This document shows positions 8,613-18,254 of a stretch of 64,000 nt of DNA, piece after piece. Under the pieces are notes generated by a model that saw only the letters and a list, made by a program, of their open reading frames with translations, made no database searches and was not told where the DNA came from. Position 1 is the first letter of the stretch. Every line of letters begins with the position of its first letter. This DNA is from an uncultured Actinomycetes bacterium (GTDB taxonomy: Bacteria > Actinomycetota > UBA4738 > HRBIN12), in assembly GCA_963704725.1 (NCBI GenBank), contig OY969934.1, positions 416,001-480,000 on the forward strand, in the 5' to 3' direction. The translations under genes and the position numbers were made by a program.

Positions 8613-11600
8613 CTACCGCCCGGCGCCCAGATGCAGGGACGAGCGCGTGGCCTCCGCTCGAGCAAGCGAAGCGAGGTTGCCCTTGCGGCGGTACAGCTCC
8701 GCCGCGGTCTCGAACTCGCCGGTCGCCTGATCCGCCCGGCCGGCGGCCACGAGGACGATGCCGAGGTCGAGGTGGGCGTCGCCCGCCATGTTCAGCAGGT
8801 CGGACCGGTCGGCGAACGCGGTTCCCTCCGCGGCGACCCGCTCCGCCTCTTCGAGCTCGCCCCGGGCCGCGAGCACCTTGGCGCGCACGCCGCGCCACGC
8901 CATCTGCGACGCCACGTCGTCCTCCGCGGTCGCCTCTTCGCTCTCGATCGAGGTGCGCATCGCCTCGTCCAGCTCGCCCTTGCGGTAGAGCGCCTCGGCG
9001 AGCAGGGCCACGGCGGTGGAGAACATGCTCTGCTCACCCATGCGCTGCAGGGTCTCGACGGCCGGTCGAAGGACGGCCTCGGCAGCATCGGCGTCGTCCG
9101 CGAGGAGCATCGCCGCGCCGTAGTGCATGTGGATCGAGGCGAGCCGCCACTCGGTGCCGAGCTCCTCGGCCCGGGCCACGGCGTCGTCGAACGGCCCTCG
9201 GGCCTCCTCGAACCGGCCCGCCATCGCCAGGAGGAACCCCAGTCCGGCCATGGTCTCGGGGTTGGGGCGGCGCGCGTTCGCCAGGCTGCGCTCGGTGATC
9301 TCGAGGCACCGCTCGACGGAGAGCGGACCGTGAGCCACCCCGAGCGTGGCGCGCTGGGCCGCCTCCCGCTCGTCTCCGGCCTCGCGCGCGATGCGCTGGC
9401 CGATCTCGTACGCCTCGACCGATTCGCCGACCCTGCCTCGGCGCCCCAGCGCGTCGCCCAGCAGCCGGTGAGCCGCGGCCACCCCCGGGAGGTCGCCAAG
9501 ACGCTCCAGCGCCCCGACGGCGTCGATGGCGAACCGCTCCATCTCCTGCGTGTTCGTGGCCTCGGGGTTCCGCCAGAATCGGATGTCCGTCTGCTGGAGC
9601 CGGATGCGCCACTCGGCGATCTCGTTGCCCGCCCGGCGGGCGTCCTCCAGCCCCACCTCCAGGACGGCCTCCGCCCGATCCGGCTCGCCCTTCTCGAAGA
9701 GCGCGGCCGCGAGCTGCCACGTGAGCTCGCACCGCGTGGGGTCGTCCTCGCCGAGGAGCGCGAGAGCTCGTCCGAGGAGGCCGGCCGCCGCAGGCATGTC
9801 GTCGCGGGCGAAGGCGCGAGCCCCTGCCGATCGCAGCCGCGCCGCAGCCCGGGCGGCGAGCGAGGACGACCAGGAATCCGAGCGCCCCAACTCCGAGCGG
9901 TAGGCGTGGGCCGCCTCGAAGTGATAGCCGATGATCTCCTCCAGCTCCGGCAGGCGCCCGCCCGCGCCGCTCTCCAGGAGATCGCCGAACGCCTCGTGCG
10001 CCTCGGCGCGAGCCGACTTCGACATCGCGCGATAGGCGACGTCCCGGATCAGGTGGTGGCGGAACCGGAACGTGCGGCCCGAGATGGGCGACTCGCGCTC
10101 CAACGAGATCATGTCCTTGGTCTCGAGCGCATCGAGCAGCGGGGCGAGCCGCTCGCCGTCGGGGGTGAACCCGGCCAGATTCTGTTCGGTGAACTCGGTC
10201 CCCACGACCGACGCGTCCTCCAGGAGCAGGCGCTCCGCGACGCCGAGCCGATCCAGACGGGCACCGATCAGCGCCTGGATCGTGGCGGGGATCGGCACCT
10301 CCGCGAAGTCCGGCGATGCCACCCATCGGTCCTGTTGCCACTGCAGGAGCCCATCCTCGACGAGGATCGCGACGAGCTCCTCGAGGAACAGGGGATGGCC
10401 CTCGGCGGCTTCGAGGATCCGCTCCCGCACCGCCGGGTCGATGTCCGCCGGGCCGAGGAGGTTGTTCACGAGCTGCGCGCTCTCGTCGTGATCGAGCGGG
10501 GCGAGGGACAGGTTCGCCGCGTTCAGCCGTCCCCCGCCCCAGCCCGGCCGATCCTCGGCGAGCTCGGGCCGCGCCAGGGACGCCACGAGCAGCGGGATGT
10601 TCCGAGCGGTGACGACCAGGTACTCGATGAGGTCGAGGAGCGTCGTCTCCGCCCAATGGATGTCGTCGAACACGAGCACGAGCGGGCGGCCGCCGGCCGC
10701 CGCCTCCAGATACCGGCGGATGGCCCAGAAGATCTCGTCCGGCACGGGTGACTTCCCGCTGAGGCCGAGCACCGAGGCGATCTGCTCCTCGATGAACGCG
10801 GCGTCCTCGATGCCCCCGATGACCCTGGCCACCTTCTCTCTCGCGCGCGCCGGTTGGTCCCCGTCGCCGATCCCCGCCGCCTGGCGGACCATCTCGGCGA
10901 TGGGGAACAGCGTGATGTCGCGCCCGTACGAGAGGCATCGACCGGTGAACGCGGTCGCCTCCTGGCCGAGCCGATCCAGGAACTCGACCGCGAGCCGCGT
11001 CTTTCCCACACCCGTGGCGCCGAGCAGCGTGACGAGCGAGGCGGTCCGTTCCCGGGACGCTCGCGCGAACGCCTGCTGCAGCACCGCGAGCTCGTTCTCC
11101 CGGCCGACGAGCGGAGAGGCGAAGCGACGGCCGGCGGGGACCAGGAGGGGACTCTCGACCAGACGGAACGCCGCGAACGAGGACCCGTCCGCGTCGAGCA
11201 GGAGGATCTCCGCGGGCTCGATGCCGGCGGAGCGCCGCACGAGCCTGGCCGCGGCGTCGTTCATGAGCACCTCGCCGGGCTTGGCCGACCTCGCGAGGTG
11301 GTCCGCCTCCTCGAGGGGCGTGACGGACAGGAGTCGCTCCTGTCCGTGGGAGGACTCGACCAGGACCTCTCCGAGTGAGATGCCGACCCGGAGCGTGGGG
11401 CCCGTGCCTTCGTCCCCGGCGCCGATGCCGGCGGCGTACCAGGCGCACAGCTCCGACGCCGCGCGGACCGCGCGGACCGTGTCGTCCTCGTGCACCCGGG
11501 GCGTGCCGAAGACCGCGCTGATCTTGCCGAGCACGGACTCGTGCACCCACCCCCCGTGCGTCTCGACGATCGCGCGCGCCTGATGCATCGCCTGCTCGAG

Positions 11601-12476
11601 CTCGGCGCTCATCGTCTCGGGATCGTCGGACGCGGCGTGCTCGAAGAGGCGGCACACCAGCGCGGCGACGGTCTTACGGAGCGTGCGGGGCGCGACTCGA
11701 TCCGCGGGAACGGGACTGTCGAGGGCGGGATCCTGCGCCAAGATCTGCTCCTCGAGCCTGCGGATCGCCGGTCCCGGCTCGATCCCGAGCTCCTGCGACA
11801 GGGCGTGTCGCAGGCCCGCGATCGAGTCGAGCGCCTCCGCCTGCCGGCCGGATCGGTACAGCGCGACCGCGGCCAAGGCGACGATGCGCTCGTGGAGGGG
11901 ATGCCCGGTTCGCAGGCCCTCCAGCTCCGGCACGACCTCGAGGTGCCGGCCGAGCGCGAGGTCCGCCTCCAGCCGATCGGCCACCGCCGTCAGATGCAGC
12001 TCCTGGATCTCCGCGAGCTCCGGCTCCGGGAGCCCGGGGATGCGGACGTTCGCGAGCGGCGCACCCCGGTAGAGCGCCAGGGCTCGTTCCAGGCTCTCCC
12101 GGGCTGCCCAGTGCTCTCCCGCCGCCGTCTCAGATCGCGCCTCGGCCACCAGCTTCCGGAACAGGTCGAGATCGAGCCGATCGGGACCCAGGTGCAGGAC
12201 GTACCCCCCCTCCGTCGTCTCGAGCCGGACCGAGGCGTCACCGTCCAGCAGCTTGCGGAGCTTGGAGACGTGCATCTGGAGCGCGGTCCGGGCCGTCGGG
12301 GGCGGCGAGTCCCCCCACAGCGCATCGATCAGCGTCTCGGGCGAGACCACCTGGTCGATCCGGAAGAGCAAGAAGGCGAGGAGCCCGGGAAGCTTCGAGC
12401 CACGCACCGGCAGGGGAACGCCATCGCGCTCGACCCCGAGGGGACCGAGCACGCGAAAGACCAGGTGAAACGGCAT
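8613..12476 (-). CDS. SARP/AfsR-like regulator: wHTH + BTAD + degenerate class III cyclase-like domain + AAA (STAND) ATPase + TPR
   Basis: FRVLGPL...LWGDSPP...HVSKLRK; ALYRSGRQAEAL (BTAD); LVGRENEL, GATGVGKTRL, VFDDIHWA, GHPLFLEE; SD AGGAG before ATG 12476. Confidence 0.9.
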   Translation of the reverse strand: MPFHLVFRVLGPLGVERDGVPLPVRGSKLPGLLAFLLFRIDQVVSPETLIDALWGDSPPPTARTALQMHVSKLRKLLDGDASVRLETTEGGYVLHLGPDRLDLDLFRKLVAEARSETAAGEHWAARESLERALALYRGAPLANVRIPGLPEPELAEIQELHLTAVADRLEADLALGRHLEVVPELEGLRTGHPLHERIVALAAVALYRSGRQAEALDSIAGLRHALSQELGIEPGPAIRRLEEQILAQDPALDSPVPADRVAPRTLRKTVAALVCRLFEHAASDDPETMSAELEQAMHQARAIVETHGGWVHESVLGKISAVFGTPRVHEDDTVRAVRAASELCAWYAAGIGAGDEGTGPTLRVGISLGEVLVESSHGQERLLSVTPLEEADHLARSAKPGEVLMNDAAARLVRRSAGIEPAEILLLDADGSSFAAFRLVESPLLVPAGRRFASPLVGRENELAVLQQAFARASRERTASLVTLLGATGVGKTRLAVEFLDRLGQEATAFTGRCLSYGRDITLFPIAEMVRQAAGIGDGDQPARAREKVARVIGGIEDAAFIEEQIASVLGLSGKSPVPDEIFWAIRRYLEAAAGGRPLVLVFDDIHWAETTLLDLIEYLVVTARNIPLLVASLARPELAEDRPGWGGGRLNAANLSLAPLDHDESAQLVNNLLGPADIDPAVRERILEAAEGHPLFLEELVAILVEDGLLQWQQDRWVASPDFAEVPIPATIQALIGARLDRLGVAERLLLEDASVVGTEFTEQNLAGFTPDGERLAPLLDALETKDMISLERESPISGRTFRFRHHLIRDVAYRAMSKSARAEAHEAFGDLLESGAGGRLPELEEIIGYHFEAAHAYRSELGRSDSWSSSLAARAAARLRSAGARAFARDDMPAAAGLLGRALALLGEDDPTRCELTWQLAAALFEKGEPDRAEAVLEVGLEDARRAGNEIAEWRIRLQQTDIRFWRNPEATNTQEMERFAIDAVGALERLGDLPGVAAAHRLLGDALGRRGRVGESVEAYEIGQRIAREAGDEREAAQRATLGVAHGPLSVERCLEITERSLANARRPNPETMAGLGFLLAMAGRFEEARGPFDDAVARAEELGTEWRLASIHMHYGAAMLLADDADAAEAVLRPAVETLQRMGEQSMFSTAVALLAEALYRKGELDEAMRTSIESEEATAEDDVASQMAWRGVRAKVLAARGELEEAERVAAEGTAFADRSDLLNMAGDAHLDLGIVLVAAGRADQATGEFETAAELYRRKGNLASLARAEATRSSLHLGAGR

Positions 12477-12551
12477 ATCGCTCCTAAGAAACGGCCGCTC
12501 CTCGAGCCTAGCCCACCATCGGGGGACCCCGCTACCACCGAACGACGGAAG

Positions 12552-12580
12552 ACGTTAGTGACACGTTAGCCCCCCATTAG
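12552..12580 (+). promoter_or_regulatory. Three heptamer direct repeats with 11-bp period (ACGTTAG, ACGTTAG, CCATTAG); candidate SARP-binding site
   Basis: TTAG at 12555, 12566 and 12577, between the divergent SARP-like gene and small peptide gene 1. Confidence 0.55.
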
Positions 12581-12632
12581 GGGTCCCCCGCATCCTTGCC
12601 CCAAGGTCCCCTAGCGGGGAAGGAGACAGGTC

Positions 12633-12715
12633 ATGAGGACACTCAAGCGCTTCGCAATCGCATCGGCGCGCTCCTGACGCTCGCCTTCGCAGGCGGCGCG
12701 CACATCCGGTTCTAG
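12633..12715 (+). CDS. Small signal-peptide-like precursor 1, MRTLKRFAIA(I)GALLTLAFAGGAHIRF (27 aa), apparently carrying a 1-nt deletion near 12660-12662
   Basis: SD AAGGAG at 12620-12625 and ATG 12633. The direct frame stops at 12677, but the shifted frame reads IGALLTLAFAGGAHIRF-TAG. Length is 83 nt versus 84 nt for the paralog at 14664-14747. Confidence 0.7.
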
Positions 12716-12814
12716 GCGCGGAGCTGGCAAGCAGGGCCCTCCGCCAGTCGGTGTATCGGCCTTGATCTGCTGGAGGGCACGGGAGCTTCCCGGATTGGAG
12801 CCCTCGGAGCCCAG

Positions 12815-12850
12815 CGCCCCCGACGCTTCGGTCGGGGGCGTGTGTTGTGC
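12815..12850 (+). terminator. Hairpin terminator downstream of peptide gene 1
   Basis: CGCCCCCGAC-GCTTCG-GTCGGGGGCG followed by TGTGTTGTGC. Confidence 0.6.
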
Positions 12851-13037
12851 TTCGGGCCGAGTATCCGGATGGCTCTCAAGATCGGGAGCCGGTGCAATCT
12901 GCAGAGCTGTCTGCATTCTTGCTTCATGAGCGCACGCGAGCTCGGTCGCCGCCGCGTCATAACTCGTGCAACAGCCGGAGCAGACGAGTCTCGTCTCTAG
13001 TGCGAGACCAGCAACGGGCTCTTTTGAACCCGGCCTA

Positions 13038-13067
13038 TTGACCCCGGCGCCCCCCTTTCTCCATGAT
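13038..13067 (+). promoter_or_regulatory. Putative sigma70-type promoter of kinase 1
   Basis: TTGACC (13038-13043), 18-nt spacer, CATGAT (13062-13067). Confidence 0.45.
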
Positions 13068-13145
13068 TCCCGTCTGCACGTCTTGTCTGGCACGGTCTTG
13101 CACGGCGCTTCCCCGTTCCCGCCGTGTCACGAAGGGGGAGGGGTT

Positions 13146-14603
13146 GTGTCTTCGAGCATTGGTGCAGCGTCAAGCGCCGGGAAGCATGTGCCGCCGGCGC
13201 CAGCCCGCTCTCGGTCAGTTAGACCCGCGAGAGTAGCTATCTGGGGCGTGATTGCTCTAGACACAGGGATACTGATCGCTGGCTGCGTCCTCACGGCGAC
13301 CCAGCTCATGAGGGTCGGGCCAGAATTGCTTACTTGGTCGCTTGCCGTAGCTGTAGTCGGAGTCGCCGCCATACAAACGCCCCGCGGACCAGCGCTTGGG
13401 TTGGACATGCCAGTCTTGCTGGCTGCGGGCTACCTGCTAGGTCCCATTCCCGCCGGGATTGTGGCGTTAGCTGGCTATGTCGATACCCGCGAGTTCAGGG
13501 GCGAGATTAGCGGGGAACGAGCGCTCTTCAACAGGGCGCAGACTTCCTTGAGCGTAATGGCTGCGACAGCTGCGTTCTCTTTACTCGGCGGCACGTCGCG
13601 CCTGTCTTTGACCTCATTGTCAGCAGGATTAGTGGCCGTGGCGGTGGACAGCGCGATCAACTACAGCCTCATTGCGGGTGTCATGTCACTCCACGACGGC
13701 GTCTCAGCCCTTGCCACTCTAGGTCGGCTGCGCTTTGGATCCGTCGCGACCTTCTCGGCAACCTACTCTTGTTACGGCCTACTGAGCGTGCTCCTCGCTG
13801 AGGTCGACGTTGAGGTTGGTCCGCTTGGTCTGTTGCTCTTCGCGATCCCGCTCCTTCTGGCAAGACAAGCACTCGCGAGCGCACAGAGACTCGAGGGCGC
13901 CGAGCGACGTGTGCAGATCCAACGTGCCGCGCTCGGTCAGGAGTCCATTCGGCTCTCCGATGAACGCCGCGATGAGCGCCTTTCTGTTGCGGCTGGTCTT
14001 CATGATGACCTGCTGCCTCGCCTGTTTAGAGTGCACCTGCTCGGCCAGGTGTTGCGCCAGCAGTTGGCGACTGGCCAACTGCTGGCGATGGAGGACGACC
14101 TGCCAACCCTAATTCGGGCAACAGAAGAGGCGAGCGAAACCGCGCAAAGCCAGATTCGCCAGCTCCGTTCCTCGAGTCTCGGGATGCAAGGATTGTCGGA
14201 GAATCTCCGTGGTCTGGTGAATCAGCTTGAGATGGAGACGCAGATCACATTCCAGACCGAGATCGACGACTTGGCGGCTGCGCCCCTAATTGAGCTGCTG
14301 GCGTATCAAGTCGCTCGCGAGGCGATACGGAACGTCATCAAGCATGCGGAGGCAACTGTAGTTCGTGTGACGCTGTCCCACGAGTCGCCGGGGATACTGC
14401 TGGTGATTGAAGACGATGGTCGTGGCTTTCATCCGCAGCTTGTCGACGAAACGAGTCACTTCGGCATTGCGTTGATGCGGGAGCGTGTCGAACTTGCTAG
14501 AGGCGTCGCCGACATCGATAGCTCCCCGGAAGGCGGAACGCGGCTGACTGTGCGGCTGCCCCTAGAAGGGCCCGGTCTGGTCGCCTCAGTAGAGACAGCG
14601 TAG
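13146..14603 (+). CDS. Membrane-sensor histidine kinase 1 (multi-TM domain + HisKA_3 + HATPase_c)
   Basis: About 7-8 TM segments with RALFNRAQ; ERLSVAAGLHDD H-box, EAIRNVIKHA, EDDGRGF, HFGIALMRERV, GGTRL. Start GTG 13146 after GGGGAGG (ORF open from 12966). Confidence 0.9.
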   Translation: MSSSIGAASSAGKHVPPAPARSRSVRPARVAIWGVIALDTGILIAGCVLTATQLMRVGPELLTWSLAVAVVGVAAIQTPRGPALGLDMPVLLAAGYLLGPIPAGIVALAGYVDTREFRGEISGERALFNRAQTSLSVMAATAAFSLLGGTSRLSLTSLSAGLVAVAVDSAINYSLIAGVMSLHDGVSALATLGRLRFGSVATFSATYSCYGLLSVLLAEVDVEVGPLGLLLFAIPLLLARQALASAQRLEGAERRVQIQRAALGQESIRLSDERRDERLSVAAGLHDDLLPRLFRVHLLGQVLRQQLATGQLLAMEDDLPTLIRATEEASETAQSQIRQLRSSSLGMQGLSENLRGLVNQLEMETQITFQTEIDDLAAAPLIELLAYQVAREAIRNVIKHAEATVVRVTLSHESPGILLVIEDDGRGFHPQLVDETSHFGIALMRERVELARGVADIDSSPEGGTRLTVRLPLEGPGLVASVETA

Positions 14604-14632
14604 GCCCCGGGATGATTACCCGGAGCCTACGC
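14598..14632. terminator. Hairpin between convergent kinase 1 and peptide gene 2
   Basis: GCGTAGGC-C-CCGGG ATGATTA CCCGG-A-GCCTACGC inverted repeat. Confidence 0.55.
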
Positions 14633-14663
14633 CTTCAGTTCACATTGGTCGGCCGGCTTGCGA

Positions 14664-14747
14664 CTAGAAGCGAATGTGGGCTCCACCGGCGAGAACCAGC
14701 GCCGCAAGAGATCCGACCGCAATGGCGGCACGCCTGATCAGGTTCAC
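14664..14747 (-). CDS. Small signal-peptide-like precursor 2, MNLIRRAAIAVGSLAALVLAGGAHIRF (27 aa)
   Basis: Strong SD AGGAGGT 5 nt before GTG 14747; intact 84-nt ORF; 16/27 identical to repaired peptide 1, including the last 8 residues. Confidence 0.8.
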   Translation of the reverse strand: MNLIRRAAIAVGSLAALVLAGGAHIRF

Positions 14748-15001
14748 CTGCCACCTCCTCGTTGGGTCTGAGGACGATGCCCCCCTTGGCTCGGCCATCC
14801 CCCACGTTCGGCGGCTCCCACCGCGACGGGGGAGGGCGGTGCCACTATCGGAGGACCCCCCAACGCCCGACAAGAGGGGCCACACTCCTACAGAATCGAA
14901 CGTAGGTGCCGCCATCCTGAAGGTGGTTCTGGCCTGCTCCCCCTGAACGAATCCACCTGATATGAGAGTCACGACCGCCCCGCAGGGGCAGGAGGTGACT
15001 C

Positions 15002-15280
15002 TTGAAGGGACGACGTCACACCCCCGAGCAGATCGTGCGCAAGCTGCACGAGGCCGATCGCCTAGTGGCCGAGGGCAAGAGCCTGGCGGTCGTGCTGAAG
15101 GCCCTCGGCGTCTCCGAGCAGACCTACTACCGCTGGCGCAAGGCGTACGGGCAGCTCTCGCCCGATGAGGCCCGACGTCTTCGTGAGCTCGAGTCCGAGA
15201 ACCGCCGCCTGAAGAAGCTGGTCGCCGACAAGGAGCTGGAGCTCGACGTGCTCAGGGAGATCGCCCGGGGAAACTTCTGA
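15002..15280 (+). CDS. IS3-family transposase OrfA (HTH + coiled coil)
   Basis: RHTPEQIVRKL...GVSEQTYYRWRK...LRELESENRRLKKLVAD; ends over the slippery GGGAAAC (15268-15274). Confidence 0.95.
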   Translation: MKGRRHTPEQIVRKLHEADRLVAEGKSLAVVLKALGVSEQTYYRWRKAYGQLSPDEARRLRELESENRRLKKLVADKELELDVLREIARGNF

Positions 15281-15309
15281 GCCCGGAGCGACGACGCCGG
15301 GCCGCCGAC

Positions 15310-16125
15310 ATGGCCCAGGACCGCTTCGGGCTGTCCGAGCGACGAGCGTGCACGATCGTCGGCCAGTCCCGCTCGACCCAGCGCCGGCCACCTCGGCGAG
15401 CTGGGGACCGGCCGCTGCGGCGGCGGCTGCACCACATCGCCAGGCGCCACCCGCGCTTCGGCTACCGACGGGCTCACGTCCTGCTGCTCCGAGAGGGATG
15501 GATGATCAACCGCAAGAAGGTGCTGCGCCTCTGGCGTGAGGAGGGCCTGAAGGTGCAGTCCAGACATCACAAGCGCCGCCGGCCGCCGGGCGGCGAGCAG
15601 GCCCGGCGAGCGGAGCGGCCCAACGAGGTCTGGGCGATCGACTTCCAGTTCGACGCCACCTCCGACGGACGGATGCTGAAGCTCGCCAACGTCGTTGACG
15701 AGTTCACCCGGGAGGCCCTTGCGACCCGCACCGGCAGGACGTGCACCGCCGACAAGCTGGTCGAGATCCTCGACGCGCTCCTCGCAGAGCGCGGCGCGCC
15801 GGAGCACCTACGGTGCGACAACGGACCCGAGCTCATCGCGTGGGCCCTTCGGGACTGGTGCCACCGACACGGATCGACCACGAGCTACATCGAGCCGGGC
15901 TCGCCGTGGGAGAACCCCTACGTCGAGTCGTTCAACGCCAGGATTCGAGACGAGCTGCTCGCCATCACCGAGTTCTGCGACCTGACGGAGGCTCAGGTCC
16001 TGATCGAAGACTGGAGGACCGAGTACAACACCGAGCGGCCGCACTCTTCGCTTCGCTATCTCACCCCGGTAGAGTTCCACCGGGCCTGGACCCAGCACCA
16101 TCAACCGGAGCCGGCACTCTCATAA
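15310..16125 (+). CDS. IS3-family transposase OrfB (rve DDE domain), probably fused to OrfA by -1 frameshift
   Basis: HPRFGYRR, WAIDF, VVDEFTRE, CDNGPE, SPWENPYVESFN, YNTERPHSSL. Confidence 0.95.
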   Translation: MAQDRFGLSERRACTIVGQSRSTQRRPPRRAGDRPLRRRLHHIARRHPRFGYRRAHVLLLREGWMINRKKVLRLWREEGLKVQSRHHKRRRPPGGEQARRAERPNEVWAIDFQFDATSDGRMLKLANVVDEFTREALATRTGRTCTADKLVEILDALLAERGAPEHLRCDNGPELIAWALRDWCHRHGSTTSYIEPGSPWENPYVESFNARIRDELLAITEFCDLTEAQVLIEDWRTEYNTERPHSSLRYLTPVEFHRAWTQHHQPEPALS

Positions 16126-16210
16126 CGGGTGGATCCGGAAACGGGGGCCGACCAGTTCCAACTGTTCCTCGGAAAGGTCAAGATAGCGTGGCCGCCTCGA
16201 ACGGAGACCC

Positions 16211-17635
16211 GTGGCAAAGACAAGCGCTGAGGCTTCTCCTCATGGCAAGTGGGGCCTAGCCCTGTTCGAGGCAGCCGTGGTTGTGCCGACACTGACTCTG
16301 CTTGCCTTCGGCCTCGCGAGAGACGGAGCCGCCCCTGTCGCCGATGACTGGTTGGATCTTGTGACCTGGGTGGCGATCATCGGTCTGATTGAGCTGATTC
16401 CAGTTCCGTTGTGGCGGGGCACGGCCATCGGCATGGGGTTCCCCCTCTTGATGGTGGTCGCGTTCCTCTACAACCCGGTGGCATCGGCAGCAGCCGCCTT
16501 CCTGGCTGCGTCGGACCCGCGCGAGCTCAGAGGGGAAGTCGGAGTCCTCCGGGCTCTCTTCAACAGGTGCCAAGTAGCTCTTGCGGTGTGGGCGGCGAGC
16601 GCAATATTCCACTCACTCGCCGACGTTCGCACCTCGTCAGCTCTAAGACTCCTGTTCGCAGCAGGTCTAGCTGCTCTTGCCGACTACCTGGTCAACACCC
16701 CGCTCGTAGCACTCGCCGCGAGTATTGCCTATCGGATGCGTCCCCTCCGAGTCATTCGTGAACTCCGGGTCGGACGACTGTCTGAATTCGTAATCAGTTA
16801 CTTGGCGTTAGCGGTCTTTGGCGTGATTCTCGCCAAGGTCTTCAACGTCGAGGGGATCGGTTTCTGGGGTGTGCCCGCGTTCGTGATCCCCTTGCTCTTG
16901 GCGCGACAGATGTTCTTCCGGAGCAAGGCGTTGGAAGAGGCTCATAAGGAGCTCCAAGATCGCGAACACGTTCTTCGAGCTTTGTCGAACCGGATGGCGG
17001 AGGAACGGCAGGATGAGCGGCAGCAGATCGCAGCCTTCCTTCATGACGACTTGGCTCAGCTGCTGTTCCGGCTCTCGATCCAGGTTGATGTGGCCAGGCG
17101 CCACCTAGAGTCCGGGAAGCTCGCGGAGACCGAGCATCAGCTCGCAGAGATCAAGGAAACGAAGAACCGGACGTCCGATCGAATCCGAGCGCTGATCCGT
17201 GACCTGCATCGATCGCCACTCGGTCGAGCAGGGCTGGCCGAAGCGTTGCACAGTTTCATCGCCGAGGCTGGGCGCGACGCCGATGTTCAGTTCCATGTGG
17301 ACTTCGAGGAGGTTGAGCTCCCGCCTCCGATCGCCCTGTTGCTGTACCACATCGCCCGAGAGGGTGTGATGAACGCGCTCAAGCATGCGAGGGCTCGGAA
17401 CATGTGGCTCAGTGTTAGGCAGGACGGCGACGAGGTGGAGTTCGTTCTTCGCGACGACGGGGTGGGGTTCGACGTCTCCGCCCCGGAGCCGGAAGGTCAC
17501 TTCGGGCTGACGATGATGCGAGAGCGAGCAACCGTCGGAAGTGGCACCTTCGCCATGCTTAGCGAGCCGGGCGAAGGCTCCTCGATCATGGTCCGGTTCC
17601 CGACCTCCTGGTTGCAGGAGGGGGGCCAGGTGTGA
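16211..17635 (+). CDS. Membrane-sensor histidine kinase 2 (multi-TM domain + HisKA_3 + HATPase_c), paralog of kinase 1
   Basis: DPRELRGEVGVLRALFNRCQ; ERQQIAAFLHDD, EGVMNALKHA, RDDGVGF, HFGLTMMRERA. Confidence 0.9.
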   Translation: MAKTSAEASPHGKWGLALFEAAVVVPTLTLLAFGLARDGAAPVADDWLDLVTWVAIIGLIELIPVPLWRGTAIGMGFPLLMVVAFLYNPVASAAAAFLAASDPRELRGEVGVLRALFNRCQVALAVWAASAIFHSLADVRTSSALRLLFAAGLAALADYLVNTPLVALAASIAYRMRPLRVIRELRVGRLSEFVISYLALAVFGVILAKVFNVEGIGFWGVPAFVIPLLLARQMFFRSKALEEAHKELQDREHVLRALSNRMAEERQDERQQIAAFLHDDLAQLLFRLSIQVDVARRHLESGKLAETEHQLAEIKETKNRTSDRIRALIRDLHRSPLGRAGLAEALHSFIAEAGRDADVQFHVDFEEVELPPPIALLLYHIAREGVMNALKHARARNMWLSVRQDGDEVEFVLRDDGVGFDVSAPEPEGHFGLTMMRERATVGSGTFAMLSEPGEGSSIMVRFPTSWLQEGGQV

Positions 17636-18254
17636 GGGGGCGGTTGGCAGCACCATCGCCGCTCCCGCGACGGTGTCTCCCGGGGGCCGGCGCCGACGCC
17701 GTCGGGCTCCACGTCGGAGTCCGTTCGCGCATAGCCGCGACGACCACCCAGATGAGCCCGAGGTAGACCAGGATGTCTCCCAGGCTCACGACCTGGGCGA
17801 TCGGCGGTGGGACCGGGATCACGTCGGCGAGGAACGTCAAGTCATCGTCGTCCGTCAGTCGGTGATGCTTGTCGGCCCCTTCGTCGATCAGGATCTGGAT
17901 GACGTCTGACTGCCCGGAGCGCTCGAGTGCGTCCACGCTGACGGGCATGCCGCCGTTCGCGACGATCACGAGCGCGTTGCACGCGAGGCCCAGGCCGACC
18001 AGCGGCATCCCTACTTGCCGCACGTTCACGATCGCGAAGACGAGCAGCAACGCGTAGGAGAGCGCGAGCACGCCCGTTCGGACCAGTACGTCGGTGCCGC
18101 CGTGGCCCTCGGGCAGCGGGAGGAACTGGATGACGAAGCCGGCGATCGCCAAGCCCCACCAGCGCAGGCGTATGCGCCCGAGGTGGGTCAGCCGGCCCCC
18201 GAACAGGTAGCCGAGGGCGACGGCGAGCACGATGACCGAGGCGAAGAGTCGCAT
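17586..18254 (-). CDS. DUF5317-family membrane protein
   Basis: GGRLTHLGRIRLRWW, GLACNALVIVANGGMPVS, KHH, LTFLADVIP, VVSLGDILV; pattern recognised by eye. Confidence 0.8.
   Translation of the reverse strand: MRLFASVIVLAVALGYLFGGRLTHLGRIRLRWWGLAIAGFVIQFLPLPEGHGGTDVLVRTGVLALSYALLLVFAIVNVRQVGMPLVGLGLACNALVIVANGGMPVSVDALERSGQSDVIQILIDEGADKHHRLTDDDDLTFLADVIPVPPPIAQVVSLGDILVYLGLIWVVVAAMRERTPTWSPTASAPAPGRHRRGSGDGAANRPLTPGPPPATRRSGTGP

What the first reader, a model, noticed from the sequence alone, without database searches (positions are those of the whole stretch)
14664..14760. Unannotated 27-aa ORF whose last 8 residues are conserved in its paralog through synonymous changes
Peptide 2 (MNLIRRAAIAVGSLAALVLAGGAHIRF) and peptide 1 (MRTLKRFAIAIGALLTLAFAGGAHIRF) match at 16/27 residues. 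The AGGAHIRF codons are GCC GGT GGA GCC CAC ATT CGC TTC versus GCA GGC GGC GCG CAC ATC CGG TTC, so 6 of 8 codons differ synonymously. That pattern points to protein-level purifying selection on the C-terminus while the leader drifts, as expected of a mature signal. The ORF track shows it only as the tail of an over-extended 102-aa ORF.
Basis: seen in the sequence. Interest (0 to 1): 0.85.

Follow-up and report, generated by a model that had tools for sequence, protein, structure and literature searches.

The report
Tiny membrane peptide partnered with MASE9 sensors
The 27-codon reading frame is a real, unannotated gene for a tiny membrane peptide that, across many actinobacteria, always sits next to genes for one type of membrane sensor (MASE9), so it probably works together with that sensor.

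Summary
Six of the eight C-terminal codons differ synonymously from the copy at 12689-12712.

The gene is real. Relatives were found in 199 of 294 genomes of its class, each with a start codon and ribosome site at the same place. Codon-position entropy is 0.81/0.43/1.48 and median dN/dS is 0.24.

No Pfam or NCBIfam family matches it, and 10 of 10 exact sequences are missing from a 15-billion-protein collection.

In this class it lies between two paralogous MASE9-HisKA_3 histidine kinases, in 56 of 56 loci with enough upstream sequence. In other classes of Actinomycetota a related 23-28-residue peptide gene lies directly upstream of MASE9-HD-GYP genes, on the same strand.

Best reading (about 0.5): a single-pass micro-protein that acts on the MASE9 domain inside the membrane. 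In this class its promoter carries a conserved TAC-N10-GTA site. A signal-peptide-like pheromone precursor remains possible.

The parts
14667..14747 (-). Coding sequence of the 27-residue micro-protein (peptide 2); stop codon TAG at 14664-14666
   Evidence: Orthologues have the same start position, length and stop in relatives. Coding signature.
14754..14759 (-). Shine-Dalgarno AGGAGG, 6 nt before the GTG start
   Evidence: A GGAGG-like box stands at the same distance before the proposed start in most homologues listed (by eye; a few lack one).
14602..14636 (.). 15-bp G+C-rich hairpin between the converging ends of HK1 and the peptide gene; likely two-way terminator (no T run)
   Evidence: MFE -37 kcal/mol for 14596-14668 (-), z = -4.47, 0 of 200 shuffles fold as well. 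The T-run terminator scan did not list it.
14844..14873 (-). Promoter-like pair TTGTCG (14868-14873) - 18 nt - GATAGT (14844-14849), about 100-125 nt before the start codon
   Evidence: The box TTGTSGG-N17-19-GATAGT is conserved in many class members. The composite pattern occurs once in the whole genome. The function is inferred.
14889..14904 (.). Inverted repeat TAC-N10-GTA, 15 nt upstream of the -35-like box (start to start about 31 nt); candidate operator of a dimeric regulator
   Evidence: present in 38 of 40 upstream regions of the class (200 shuffles: mean 0.9, max 4); 0 of 22 in other classes. One search gives the coordinates.
12633..12715 (+). Frameshifted paralogue ('peptide 1'): ATG with GGAAGGAG ribosome site, one base missing at codon 11
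   Evidence: Intact orthologues are in L055 and L054.
12966..14603 (+). HK1: membrane histidine kinase with a MASE9-like N-terminal domain; its end converges on the peptide gene. The true start is probably downstream of 12966.
   Evidence: HATPase_c; NarQ/LiaS-type kinase models. (orthologues align from residue about 60-90). (residues 136-312 align to the membrane part of the L135 MASE9-HD-GYP protein, E 1.3e-9; L135 MASE9 hit). H-box LHDD read.
14939..16146 (+). IS3-family insertion sequence (orfA 15002-15280, orfB 15310-16125) inserted into the peptide-HK2 intergenic region
   Evidence: HTH_Tnp_1, rve. (31-nt inverted repeats at 14939-14969 and 16116-16146). (homology to relatives stops at about 14907 and resumes inside HK2).
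16211..17635 (+). HK2: MASE9-HisKA_3-HATPase_c histidine kinase; in relatives it is transcribed divergently from the peptide gene
   Evidence: 43 of 45 orthologues match Pfam MASE9 at E<=0.01.
17586..18254 (-). DUF5317 membrane protein, convergent with HK2 and overlapping its end; the fourth conserved gene of the module
   Evidence: PF17248, E 2.7e-32; a DUF5317 match follows HK2 in 76 of 80 loci; in the other 4 the locus ends at or inside HK2. It is also found in L139, L141 and L137.

Best explanation
The 27-codon frame is a translated gene for a single-pass membrane micro-protein: a basic N-terminus, a 17-residue hydrophobic stretch ending in AGGA, and a tail of H, a hydrophobic residue, R/K and an aromatic or hydrophobic residue. 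It belongs to an undescribed family of 23-28-residue peptides of Actinomycetota whose genes are tied to genes for MASE9, an eight-helix membrane sensor domain whose describers proposed that it binds its ligand inside the membrane.

I propose that the peptide inserts into the membrane and acts on the MASE9 domain there, as a co-sensor or modulator subunit. It would set the output of whatever enzyme MASE9 carries: HisKA_3 kinases in this class (HK1 and HK2 in the window), HD-GYP c-di-GMP phosphodiesterases elsewhere. In this class its own promoter carries a conserved TAC-N10-GTA inverted repeat. That geometry (recalled) is that of NarL-family regulators, the partners of HisKA_3 kinases. The peptide would then sit in a feedback loop like MgrB on PhoQ.

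Shown: the gene, its selection, its distribution, its linkage to MASE9 and the conserved promoter elements. Inferred: translation, membrane insertion, binding to MASE9, the identity of the regulator and the direction of the effect.
For: Coding gene. A start codon with a ribosome site stands at the same place in the homologues examined. Codon-position entropy is 0.81/0.43/1.48 and all four codons are used at invariant A20, G21 and A23. Median dN/dS is 0.24 over the 1346 of 1596 pairs for which it could be computed, among 57 distinct genes.

Distribution. A profile of the class hits 199 of 294 genomes, and 87 of 109 good-quality ones. A broader profile hits 91 of 301 sampled genomes of the phylum.

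Linkage within the class. 56 of 56 loci with at least 600 nt upstream of HK2 carry the peptide gene, divergent from HK2. The order HK1, peptide, HK2, DUF5317 is kept down to 42% HK2 identity. 43 of 45 HK2 orthologues match MASE9.

Linkage in the phylum. 69 of 113 peptide matches lie within 1.5 kb of one of 122 MASE9 matches in 301 genomes; my estimate of the chance expectation is about 0.05. All 56 such rows outside the class are upstream on the same strand, and 32 of them are in 27 genomes that gave no row to the profile. 8 of 10 checked 'unlinked' matches do sit next to a MASE9-like domain by tblastn.

Output domain. It is HD-GYP in other classes and a kinase here, so the peptide follows the sensor domain, not the output.

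Feedback site. TAC-N10-GTA is found in 38 of 40 class promoters against 0 of 22 in other classes.

Membrane character. Mean Kyte-Doolittle hydropathy is 2.05 over residues 7-23.

Literature. MASE9 was proposed to bind its ligand within the membrane (10.1101/2021.11.05.467447, passages read).
Against: There is no direct evidence of translation, membrane insertion or binding.

The conservation pattern along the hydrophobic stretch has a period of 180 degrees, not the 100 degrees expected for one protein-facing helix face (permutation p 0.33-0.37).

The peptide has the full layout of a Sec signal peptide: basic end, hydrophobic core, and small residues at -3 and -1 before the tail (alignment A3). 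This fits a processed peptide as well.

Several low-G+C lineages carry 2 or 3 tandem identical copies. That is more usual for signal precursors than for stoichiometric subunits.

54 of 122 MASE9 matches have no peptide within 1.5 kb. The hdgA-like pair of an 8.5-Mb genome has none upstream, so MASE9 does not always need it. One class member has lost it (L083).

No NarL-type regulator gene lies in the neighbourhood.
Confidence: 0.5

Rival explanations
1. The peptide is a signal-peptide-like precursor of a signalling peptide. It would be inserted, then cut after AGGA by signal peptidase, or inside the membrane by a site-2 protease. The short tail or the C-terminal hydrophobic fragment would be released and sensed by MASE9 of the same or neighbouring cells, as an autocrine or quorum signal.
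For: The layout is that of a signal peptide: a basic end, a hydrophobic core of about 14 residues, then [AGST]-G-A before a 3-7-residue tail (A1 and A3). The tail varies between lineages while the putative cut site is invariant. Tandem identical gene copies occur: x2 in L150, L159 and G348, x3 in L152. The gene stands next to the receptor gene, as in peptide-kinase systems. From memory: 21-23-residue precursors of enterococcal inhibitor peptides and streptococcal SHPs are of this kind.
Against: No exporter, C39 peptidase or processing-protease gene is conserved in the neighbourhood. The hydrophobic core is conserved position by position across a whole class, which ordinary signal peptides are not. 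The tail keeps one physico-chemical pattern (hydrophobic, basic, aromatic) typical of a membrane-interface anchor. A 4-residue product would be unusually small. DUF5317 shows no likeness to signal peptidase II (hhalign probability 13%).
Confidence: 0.2
2. The peptide is a membrane micro-protein whose partner is not MASE9. The partner could be DUF5317, the conserved 215-residue protein of the HD-GYP operons, or a general membrane machine. The linkage to MASE9 genes would then reflect co-regulation only.
For: DUF5317 travels with the module in the class and in some distant loci. A conserved protein of about 215 residues with no Pfam match precedes the peptide gene in four distant loci.
Against: Across the phylum the constant neighbour is the MASE9 gene itself, directly downstream on the same strand. 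DUF5317 was seen in only 3 of 8 distant loci. In the public relative L054, HK1 is missing but both peptide copies and HK2 remain.
Confidence: 0.12
3. The peptide is a type I toxin-like, membrane-damaging small peptide, or the frame is not translated at all and the conserved element is DNA or RNA.
For: It is small and hydrophobic, like type I toxins. The gene has a long 5' leader containing a conserved CCCCC-N4-GGGGG box.
Against: It is inherited in a fixed position across a class, with no patchy, mobile distribution. Third codon positions vary freely while the amino acids stay the same, which an RNA or DNA element would not show. Rfam gives nothing (best E 0.62, both far below gathering scores). 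A ribosome site stands at a fixed distance in most homologues.
Confidence: 0.04

Closest known systems
MgrB, the 47-residue membrane peptide that inhibits the sensor kinase PhoQ (also SafA on PhoQ)
   Same: A small single-pass membrane protein linked to a sensor kinase. Its promoter carries a candidate site for the kinase's regulator family, which would make a feedback loop (PMC2789325 and PMC8404706: title and abstract start seen in the listing).
   Different: There is no sequence likeness (no Pfam hit). It is half the size. The partner would be a polytopic MASE9 domain, not a periplasmic sensor. The gene is physically next to the sensor gene. The association also holds for HD-GYP phosphodiesterases. 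Binding has not been shown.
Short hydrophobic peptide pheromone precursors (streptococcal SHP with Rgg; enterococcal iCF10/iAD1 precursors) - recalled, not from a call
   Same: A gene of about 22-27 codons that is essentially a signal peptide: a basic N-terminus followed by a hydrophobic stretch. It is encoded beside its receptor gene, and the active part would be C-terminal.
   Different: Those receptors are cytoplasmic RRNPP regulators, reached after re-import. Here the neighbours are membrane sensors. No PptAB- or Eep-type genes are nearby. The phylum is different.
Induction-peptide three-component systems and AgrD/AgrC, ComX/ComP - recalled
   Same: A peptide gene lies directly upstream of a polytopic histidine kinase gene. 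ComP is also a HisKA_3-type kinase.
   Different: There is no double-glycine leader, no AgrB or ComQ-type maturation gene, no adjacent response regulator and no ABC exporter.
HdgA/HdgB of Streptomyces venezuelae (membrane HD-GYP plus degenerate HD-GYP in one operon; HdgA named as a MASE9 protein)
   Same: The distant loci here have the same pair: a MASE9-HD-GYP gene followed by a second, more divergent paralogue. This compares with PMC6205966 and 10.1101/2021.11.05.467447 (passages read).
   Different: Neither paper mentions an upstream small gene ('small ORF': 0 occurrences). In the one large genome I tested (G316) the hdgA-like pair has no such peptide upstream.
KdpF, AcrZ, CydX-type micro-subunits of membrane complexes - recalled
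   Same: A single helix of about 30 residues, encoded in the operon of its polytopic partner.
   Different: Those partners are transporters or oxidases, not signalling proteins. There is no sequence likeness.

Membership tests
Any described protein family (Pfam-A, NCBIfam) | Significant match to a curated profile | tested here: not met
   0 families at E<=10 in Pfam and 0 at E<=1 in NCBIfam. 10 of 10 exact sequences are absent from the 15-billion-protein collection.
MgrB-like small membrane regulators of sensor kinases (functional class) | Small protein with one transmembrane helix | tested here: met
   27 residues; hydropathy 2.05 over residues 7-23; basic residues before the stretch and an H-x-R/K-aromatic tail after it.
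MgrB-like small membrane regulators of sensor kinases (functional class) | Binds the sensor protein | not testable with these tools
   It needs a binding experiment. The one complex prediction gave no verdict and is not counted (see Tried and rejected).
MgrB-like small membrane regulators of sensor kinases (functional class) | Expression controlled by the kinase's own response regulator (feedback) | tested here: inconclusive
   A conserved TAC-N10-GTA lies upstream of a promoter-like box in 38 of 40 class members and in 0 of 22 members of other classes. The regulator is unknown. The likeness to NarL 7-2-7 sites is recalled, not tested.
MgrB family proper (sequence family) | Homology to MgrB | tested here: not met
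   No Pfam match of any kind.
Sec-type signal peptide / signal-peptide-like pheromone precursor | Basic n-region, hydrophobic h-region, small residues at -3 and -1 | tested here: met
   By inspection of A1 and A3: K/R-R, about 14 hydrophobic residues, then [AGST]-G-A. The low-G+C subgroup (…GICSTVRW) lacks the G-A. No signal-peptide predictor was available.
Sec-type signal peptide / signal-peptide-like pheromone precursor | Cleavage and release of a mature peptide; dedicated exporter or protease | not testable with these tools
   No exporter or protease gene is conserved nearby. Cleavage itself needs mass spectrometry.
Lipoprotein signal peptide | Lipobox ending in Cys | tested here: not met
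   There is no Cys after L-A-G in the class. DUF5317 is not like signal peptidase II.
Type I toxin | Patchy, often multi-copy distribution with an antisense RNA | tested here: inconclusive
   The position is fixed and syntenic across a class, which argues against it. Antisense RNA could not be tested (no RNA run).
MASE9 sensor domain (for the neighbouring kinases) | Match to PF20972 over the membrane part | tested here: met
   43 of 45 HK2 orthologues match at E<=0.01, best 4.7e-9. The window's own HK2 scores 21.0 bits, below the 24.3 cut-off. L135's HD-GYP protein scores 29.2 bits.

The most novel reading that the evidence does not exclude
The micro-protein is the missing input of MASE9. It would be a gene that encodes nothing but a signal peptide, whose membrane-retained or released fragment is the ligand that MASE9 reads inside the bilayer. 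Actinobacteria would then use a self-made peptide to set c-di-GMP hydrolysis or a phosphorelay, either as cell-to-cell signalling or as a read-out of the cell's own membrane insertion and signal-peptide clearance.
Probability: 0.2. Interest if true: 0.85.

Novelty: new variant of a known kind. Interest (0 to 1): 0.68.

Why it matters
MASE9 is a widespread membrane sensor domain: it matched in 93 of 301 sampled Actinomycetota genomes and also in Thermus and Thermotoga controls. Its signal is unknown.

A dedicated, co-inherited 23-28-residue peptide gives a concrete, testable candidate for its partner or ligand. It may also explain why the MASE9 protein HdgA was hard to assign a role.

The peptide follows the sensor domain through a change of output, from HD-GYP phosphodiesterase to histidine kinase. 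This is a clean example of a micro-protein tied to an input module rather than to a pathway.

The family is invisible to standard annotation. None of 10 exact sequences is in a 15-billion-protein collection, so similar partners of other membrane sensor domains may be waiting in intergenic DNA.

Tried and rejected
Complex prediction of the peptide (alignment A1) with HK2 residues 1-245 (alignment A2) gave no verdict: score 0.20 against a mark of 0.32, and the tool noted that a 27-residue chain lies outside its calibration. It is not counted either way.

Sequencing runs: one DNA run (wetland metagenome, small share 0.05) and no RNA holder listed. When laid, one 313-nt low-depth contig covers 14511-14831 with no listed difference inside the peptide frame. 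It does not reach the peptide 1 frameshift. Expression and the frameshift therefore remain untested.

Helical-face test: conservation along residues 7-24 peaks at 180 degrees, not 100 (p 0.33-0.37). I dropped the argument that one helix face is protein-facing.

DUF5317: the AlphaFold2 model is confident (pLDDT 87, pTM 0.77). Foldseek against the PDB gave nothing at E<=0.001. VIA-align wide gave a best Z of 6.4 to generic helical bundles. There is no PDB relative by sequence. Two signal peptidase II chains at Z about 5 suggested a protease. hhalign of A5 against the genome's own LspA gave probability 13%, so I rejected that idea.

5' leader: the CCCCC-N4-GGGGG box is conserved in sequence, but RNAalifold found 2 pairs and no covariation. 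It remains unexplained.

Simple promoter and terminator scans list nothing next to peptide 2. The promoter-like box and the hairpin come from comparison and folding.

Rfam: no credible match.

Fused forms: every family member examined ends in a stop right after the tail. I saw no peptide-MASE9 fusion in those loci, but I ran no dedicated search.

Literature searches: 'DUF5317' gave 0 papers. 'MASE9' gave 2 papers. HdgA/HD-GYP/Streptomyces gave 4. Small membrane protein/sensor kinase/MgrB/actinobacteria gave 59, of which 10 were listed. HD-GYP/small protein terms gave 44, of which 10 were listed, none holding HD-GYP. None describes this peptide. Text search cannot find a sequence, and supplements (for example Figure S5 of the MASE9 preprint) were closed.

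Counts that lean on my own filters:
- The 57 genes were picked by a pattern that fixes positions 5-6 and 20-23, so invariance there is partly by construction. Positions 7-19 and 24-27 are free.
- The count of 22 of 30 is partly circular, because 17 of those loci gave rows to A3. The class-only profile found a correctly placed match at E<=1 in 16 of the 26 loci outside the class.

Unpublished genomes:
- Alignment A1 holds rows from G011, G029 and G037 (L004, L015, L022), and A3 holds one from G542 (L167).
- The tallies include the genomes flagged there.
- 6 of the 69 linked rows are from G542, G455, G515 and G310.
- No conclusion depends on them alone, and I quote none of their sequences.
Full report
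THE OBSERVATION

The minus strand of window 14747-14664 reads GTG, 26 codons and TAG, and gives MNLIRRAAIAVGSLAALVLAGGAHIRF. AGGAGG lies 6 nt before the start (14754-14759). The ORF list shows the frame only as the tail of a 102-residue ORF, 14664..14972.

A degenerate pattern for AGGAHIRF matches twice in the window, at 12689-12712 (+) and 14667-14690 (-), and never in 100 shuffles. These are the only two copies in the 3.45-Mb, one-contig genome. The two strings differ at 6 of 8 codons, always synonymously. That part of the finding is correct.

From the ATG at 12633, which has a good ribosome site, to the end of the stop at 12715 there are 83 bases. The ATG frame stops after 14 codons, and the conserved tail is in another frame. 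Aligned with the intact orthologues of two public relatives (L055, L054), the window lacks one base at codon 11. I could not tell a real pseudogene from an assembly error.

IS IT A GENE?

A search of 41 related genomes with the peptide found solid matches. In every locus I opened, a start codon at the same position opens a frame of 27-30 codons that ends in a stop right after the tail. A GGAGG-type box precedes the start in most of them.

A profile of 21 such peptides (A1) hits 199 of 294 genomes of the class, and 87 of 109 good-quality ones. Outside the class it gives only weak hits (41 of 401 in the phylum sample, of which 28 including the window's own genome are in the class).

Among 57 distinct 27-codon genes, the mean entropy at codon positions 1, 2 and 3 is 0.81, 0.43 and 1.48 bits. 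Invariant A20, G21 and A23 each use all four codons. Median dN/dS is 0.24 over the 1346 of 1596 pairs for which it could be computed. The genes were picked with a pattern that fixes positions 5-6 and 20-23.

No Rfam family fits. No Pfam or NCBIfam family matches. None of 10 exact peptide sequences is in a 15-billion-protein collection. This is a real, selected and unannotated gene.

WHERE IT SITS

To its left lies a 545-codon histidine kinase, HK1 (12966-14603, +), whose end faces the peptide's end across a 15-bp hairpin (z -4.47). To its right lies an IS3 element (inverted repeats at 14939-14969 and 16116-16146). Beyond it are a second kinase, HK2 (16211-17635, +; HisKA_3, HATPase_c), and a convergent DUF5317 membrane protein.

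HK1 and HK2 are 32% identical. Both have a polytopic N-terminal half and a lower G+C than the genome (about 60% against 70.5%).

Using HK2 as bait I fetched 80 public loci, all from uncultured Actinomycetota MAGs. The gene order HisKA kinase, OmpR regulator, HK1, peptide, HK2, DUF5317, UvrD-like, MpaB, HAD, UbiE recurs. The core HK1-peptide-HK2-DUF5317 persists down to 42% HK2 identity.

All 56 loci with at least 600 nt upstream of HK2 carry the peptide gene, divergent from HK2. The 23 loci without it comprise 22 in which the contig leaves less than 300 nt upstream of HK2, and L083, where HK1 ends 148 nt before HK2 and the gene is gone.

In the window the IS has landed in the divergent intergenic region, about 190 nt from the peptide start and 65 nt from the HK2 start. 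The SARP regulator (8613-12476) and the second peptide copy upstream of HK1 were seen only in the window and its two closest relatives, L054 and L055.

THE LINK TO MASE9

43 of 45 HK2 orthologues match Pfam MASE9 at E<=0.01. The window's own HK2 scores 21 bits, just under the cut-off.

The weak phylum hits were informative. In eight loci from other classes, a peptide of the same design stands with a ribosome site. One example is a 25-residue peptide ending ...LLLSGGAHWRW in L135. In seven of the eight it is immediately upstream, on the same strand, of a membrane HD-GYP gene. The L135 protein matches MASE9 at 29 bits, and HK1 and HK2 align to its membrane part. Several of these loci continue with a second, more divergent paralogue, and three of the eight also hold DUF5317.

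I then searched MASE9 itself in 301 sampled genomes of the phylum: 93 genomes and 122 matches. A class-only profile already finds a correctly placed small frame at E<=1 in 16 of the 26 best MASE9 loci from other classes.

A broader alignment (A3, 31 rows) hits 91 of the same 301 genomes, with 113 matches. Of these, 69 lie within 1.5 kb of a MASE9 match, where I estimate about 0.05 by chance. All 56 such rows outside the class are 'upstream, same strand'. 32 of them are in 27 genomes that gave nothing to the profile. The 13 rows inside the class are on the opposite strand, 12 of them upstream of the MASE9 gene. Of 10 'unlinked' matches that I could inspect, 8 do have a MASE9-like domain beside them by tblastn.

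The output domain next to the peptide is HD-GYP in 19 of the 30 best MASE9 loci and a kinase in 4. The peptide therefore follows the sensor domain, whatever enzyme it drives.

The rule is not absolute. 54 of 122 MASE9 matches have no peptide within 1.5 kb. An hdgA/hdgB-like pair in an 8.5-Mb genome sits behind sigR/rsrA-like genes with no peptide.

WHAT IS KNOWN ABOUT THE NEIGHBOURS

MASE9 was defined as an eight-segment membrane domain with charged residues in the core, 'suggesting that ligand binding occurs within the membrane'. HdgA of Streptomyces venezuelae is the only studied member (10.1101/2021.11.05.467447, passages read). hdgA and the degenerate hdgB form one operon. No small upstream gene is mentioned (PMC6205966, passages read).

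DUF5317 appears in no paper of the library. Its confident model has no clear structural relative.

THE PEPTIDE'S OWN CONTROL REGION

In the class, the 200 nt before the start codon hold three conserved elements:
- a TAC-N10-GTA inverted repeat, in 38 of 40 regions (shuffles: mean 0.9, max 4);
- a TTGTSGG-N17-19-GATAGT promoter-like pair, whose TTG starts about 31 nt after the start of the repeat;
- a CCCCC-N4-GGGGG box in the leader, with no covariation.

In the window these are at 14889-14904 and 14844-14873. The composite pattern is unique in the genome. None of 22 peptide genes of other classes has the repeat; 21 of those 22 stand before HD-GYP-type genes.

From memory, TAC-N10-GTA is the geometry of the 7-2-7 sites of NarL-family regulators, the usual partners of HisKA_3 kinases. 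That would put the peptide gene under the kinases' own pathway. No such regulator gene is nearby, so this step is inferred.

HOW IT MOST LIKELY WORKS

The peptide has two or three basic residues, a 17-residue hydrophobic stretch (hydropathy 2.05) rich in small residues, an invariant AGGA and a short tail of H, a hydrophobic residue, R/K and an aromatic or hydrophobic residue. I read it as a single helix inserted with its N-terminus inside the cell, which acts on the MASE9 domain in the bilayer as a co-sensor or modulator. In this class it would be wired in feedback, as MgrB is on PhoQ. My confidence is about 0.95 for a real coding gene, 0.85 for a functional tie to MASE9 and 0.5 for direct action as an intact membrane helix.

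The main rival (0.2) is that the gene encodes a bare signal peptide that is cut. The fragment or the tail would then be the signal. The small residues at -3 and -1, the variable tail and the tandem identical copies in low-G+C lineages (x2 and x3) fit this. The position-by-position conservation of the core and the lack of any exporter or protease gene speak against it.

The conservation pattern did not show a helical face, and the one complex prediction gave no verdict. Nothing here decides between the two.

Selection on the protein is right. 'Leader drifts, C-terminal eight residues are the mature signal' is not. Across 53 distinct proteins the core is as conserved as AGGAH, and residues 25 and 27 are among the most variable.

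NOVELTY

Small membrane proteins that tune sensor kinases are a known kind. This family, its size, its phylum-wide coupling to one sensor domain across two output types, and its signal-peptide-like build are new as far as five text searches show. Supplements could not be read.

Claims that include data from unpublished genomes are listed under Tried and rejected.

Noticed in passing
window 14939-16146: A 1.2-kb IS3-family element with 31-nt imperfect inverted repeats sits in the divergent region between the peptide gene and HK2. It leaves the peptide's conserved promoter elements intact but separates HK2 (only about 65 nt of native upstream DNA remain) from them. HK2 may be mis-regulated or silent in this strain.
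   Followed up: partly
window 12633-12715: The second peptide copy, upstream of HK1 on the same strand (the arrangement seen in other classes), carries a one-base deletion. Intact copies exist in public relatives L055 and L054. In L054, HK1 itself is missing while both peptide genes remain.
   Followed up: partly
window 8613-12476 (-): A 1287-residue SARP-type regulator (Trans_reg_C, BTAD, AAA_16, TPR) lies divergent from peptide 1. Among the 80 related loci, a full-length match in this position appears only in L054 and L055, so it looks like a recent insertion together with the peptide duplicate.
   Followed up: partly
window 12500-17700: The two MASE9 kinase genes have about 57-64% G+C in a genome of 70.5%, and lack the very high third-position G+C of their neighbours.
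   Followed up: no
window 17586-18254 (-); alignment A5: DUF5317 gives a confident AlphaFold2 model (pLDDT 87) with no convincing relative in the PDB. Invariant residues include N100, M103-P104, H130, D144 and D160. Its 3' end overlaps that of HK2 by about 50 nt in the window and in many relatives.
   Followed up: partly
L150, L152, L159 (low-G+C Actinomycetota); G348, G310: Two or three tandem copies of the peptide gene with identical amino-acid sequences, each with its own ribosome site, stand before a single MASE9-HD-GYP gene. This subgroup lacks the L-x-A-G stretch and ends ...GICSTVRW.
   Followed up: partly
L134:3260-4027, L135:3132-3836, L139:4212-4868 (-), L140:3230-3874: A conserved protein of about 215 residues with no Pfam match (42-51% identity between classes) lies immediately upstream of the peptide gene in the HD-GYP-type loci.
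   Followed up: no
window about 14808-14842 (-) and the same place in relatives: A CCCCC-N4-GGGGG box just downstream of the -10-like hexamer is conserved in sequence in the peptide's leader. There is no covariation, so it could be a DNA site or an RNA stem.
   Followed up: partly
L083:475-624: This is the one class member with enough upstream sequence that has lost the peptide gene: HK1 ends 148 nt before HK2 starts.
   Followed up: yes
L170 (G392): Outside the window's class there is also a MASE9 protein with a kinase output that has the peptide gene upstream on the same strand. The kinase form is therefore not limited to one class.
   Followed up: no
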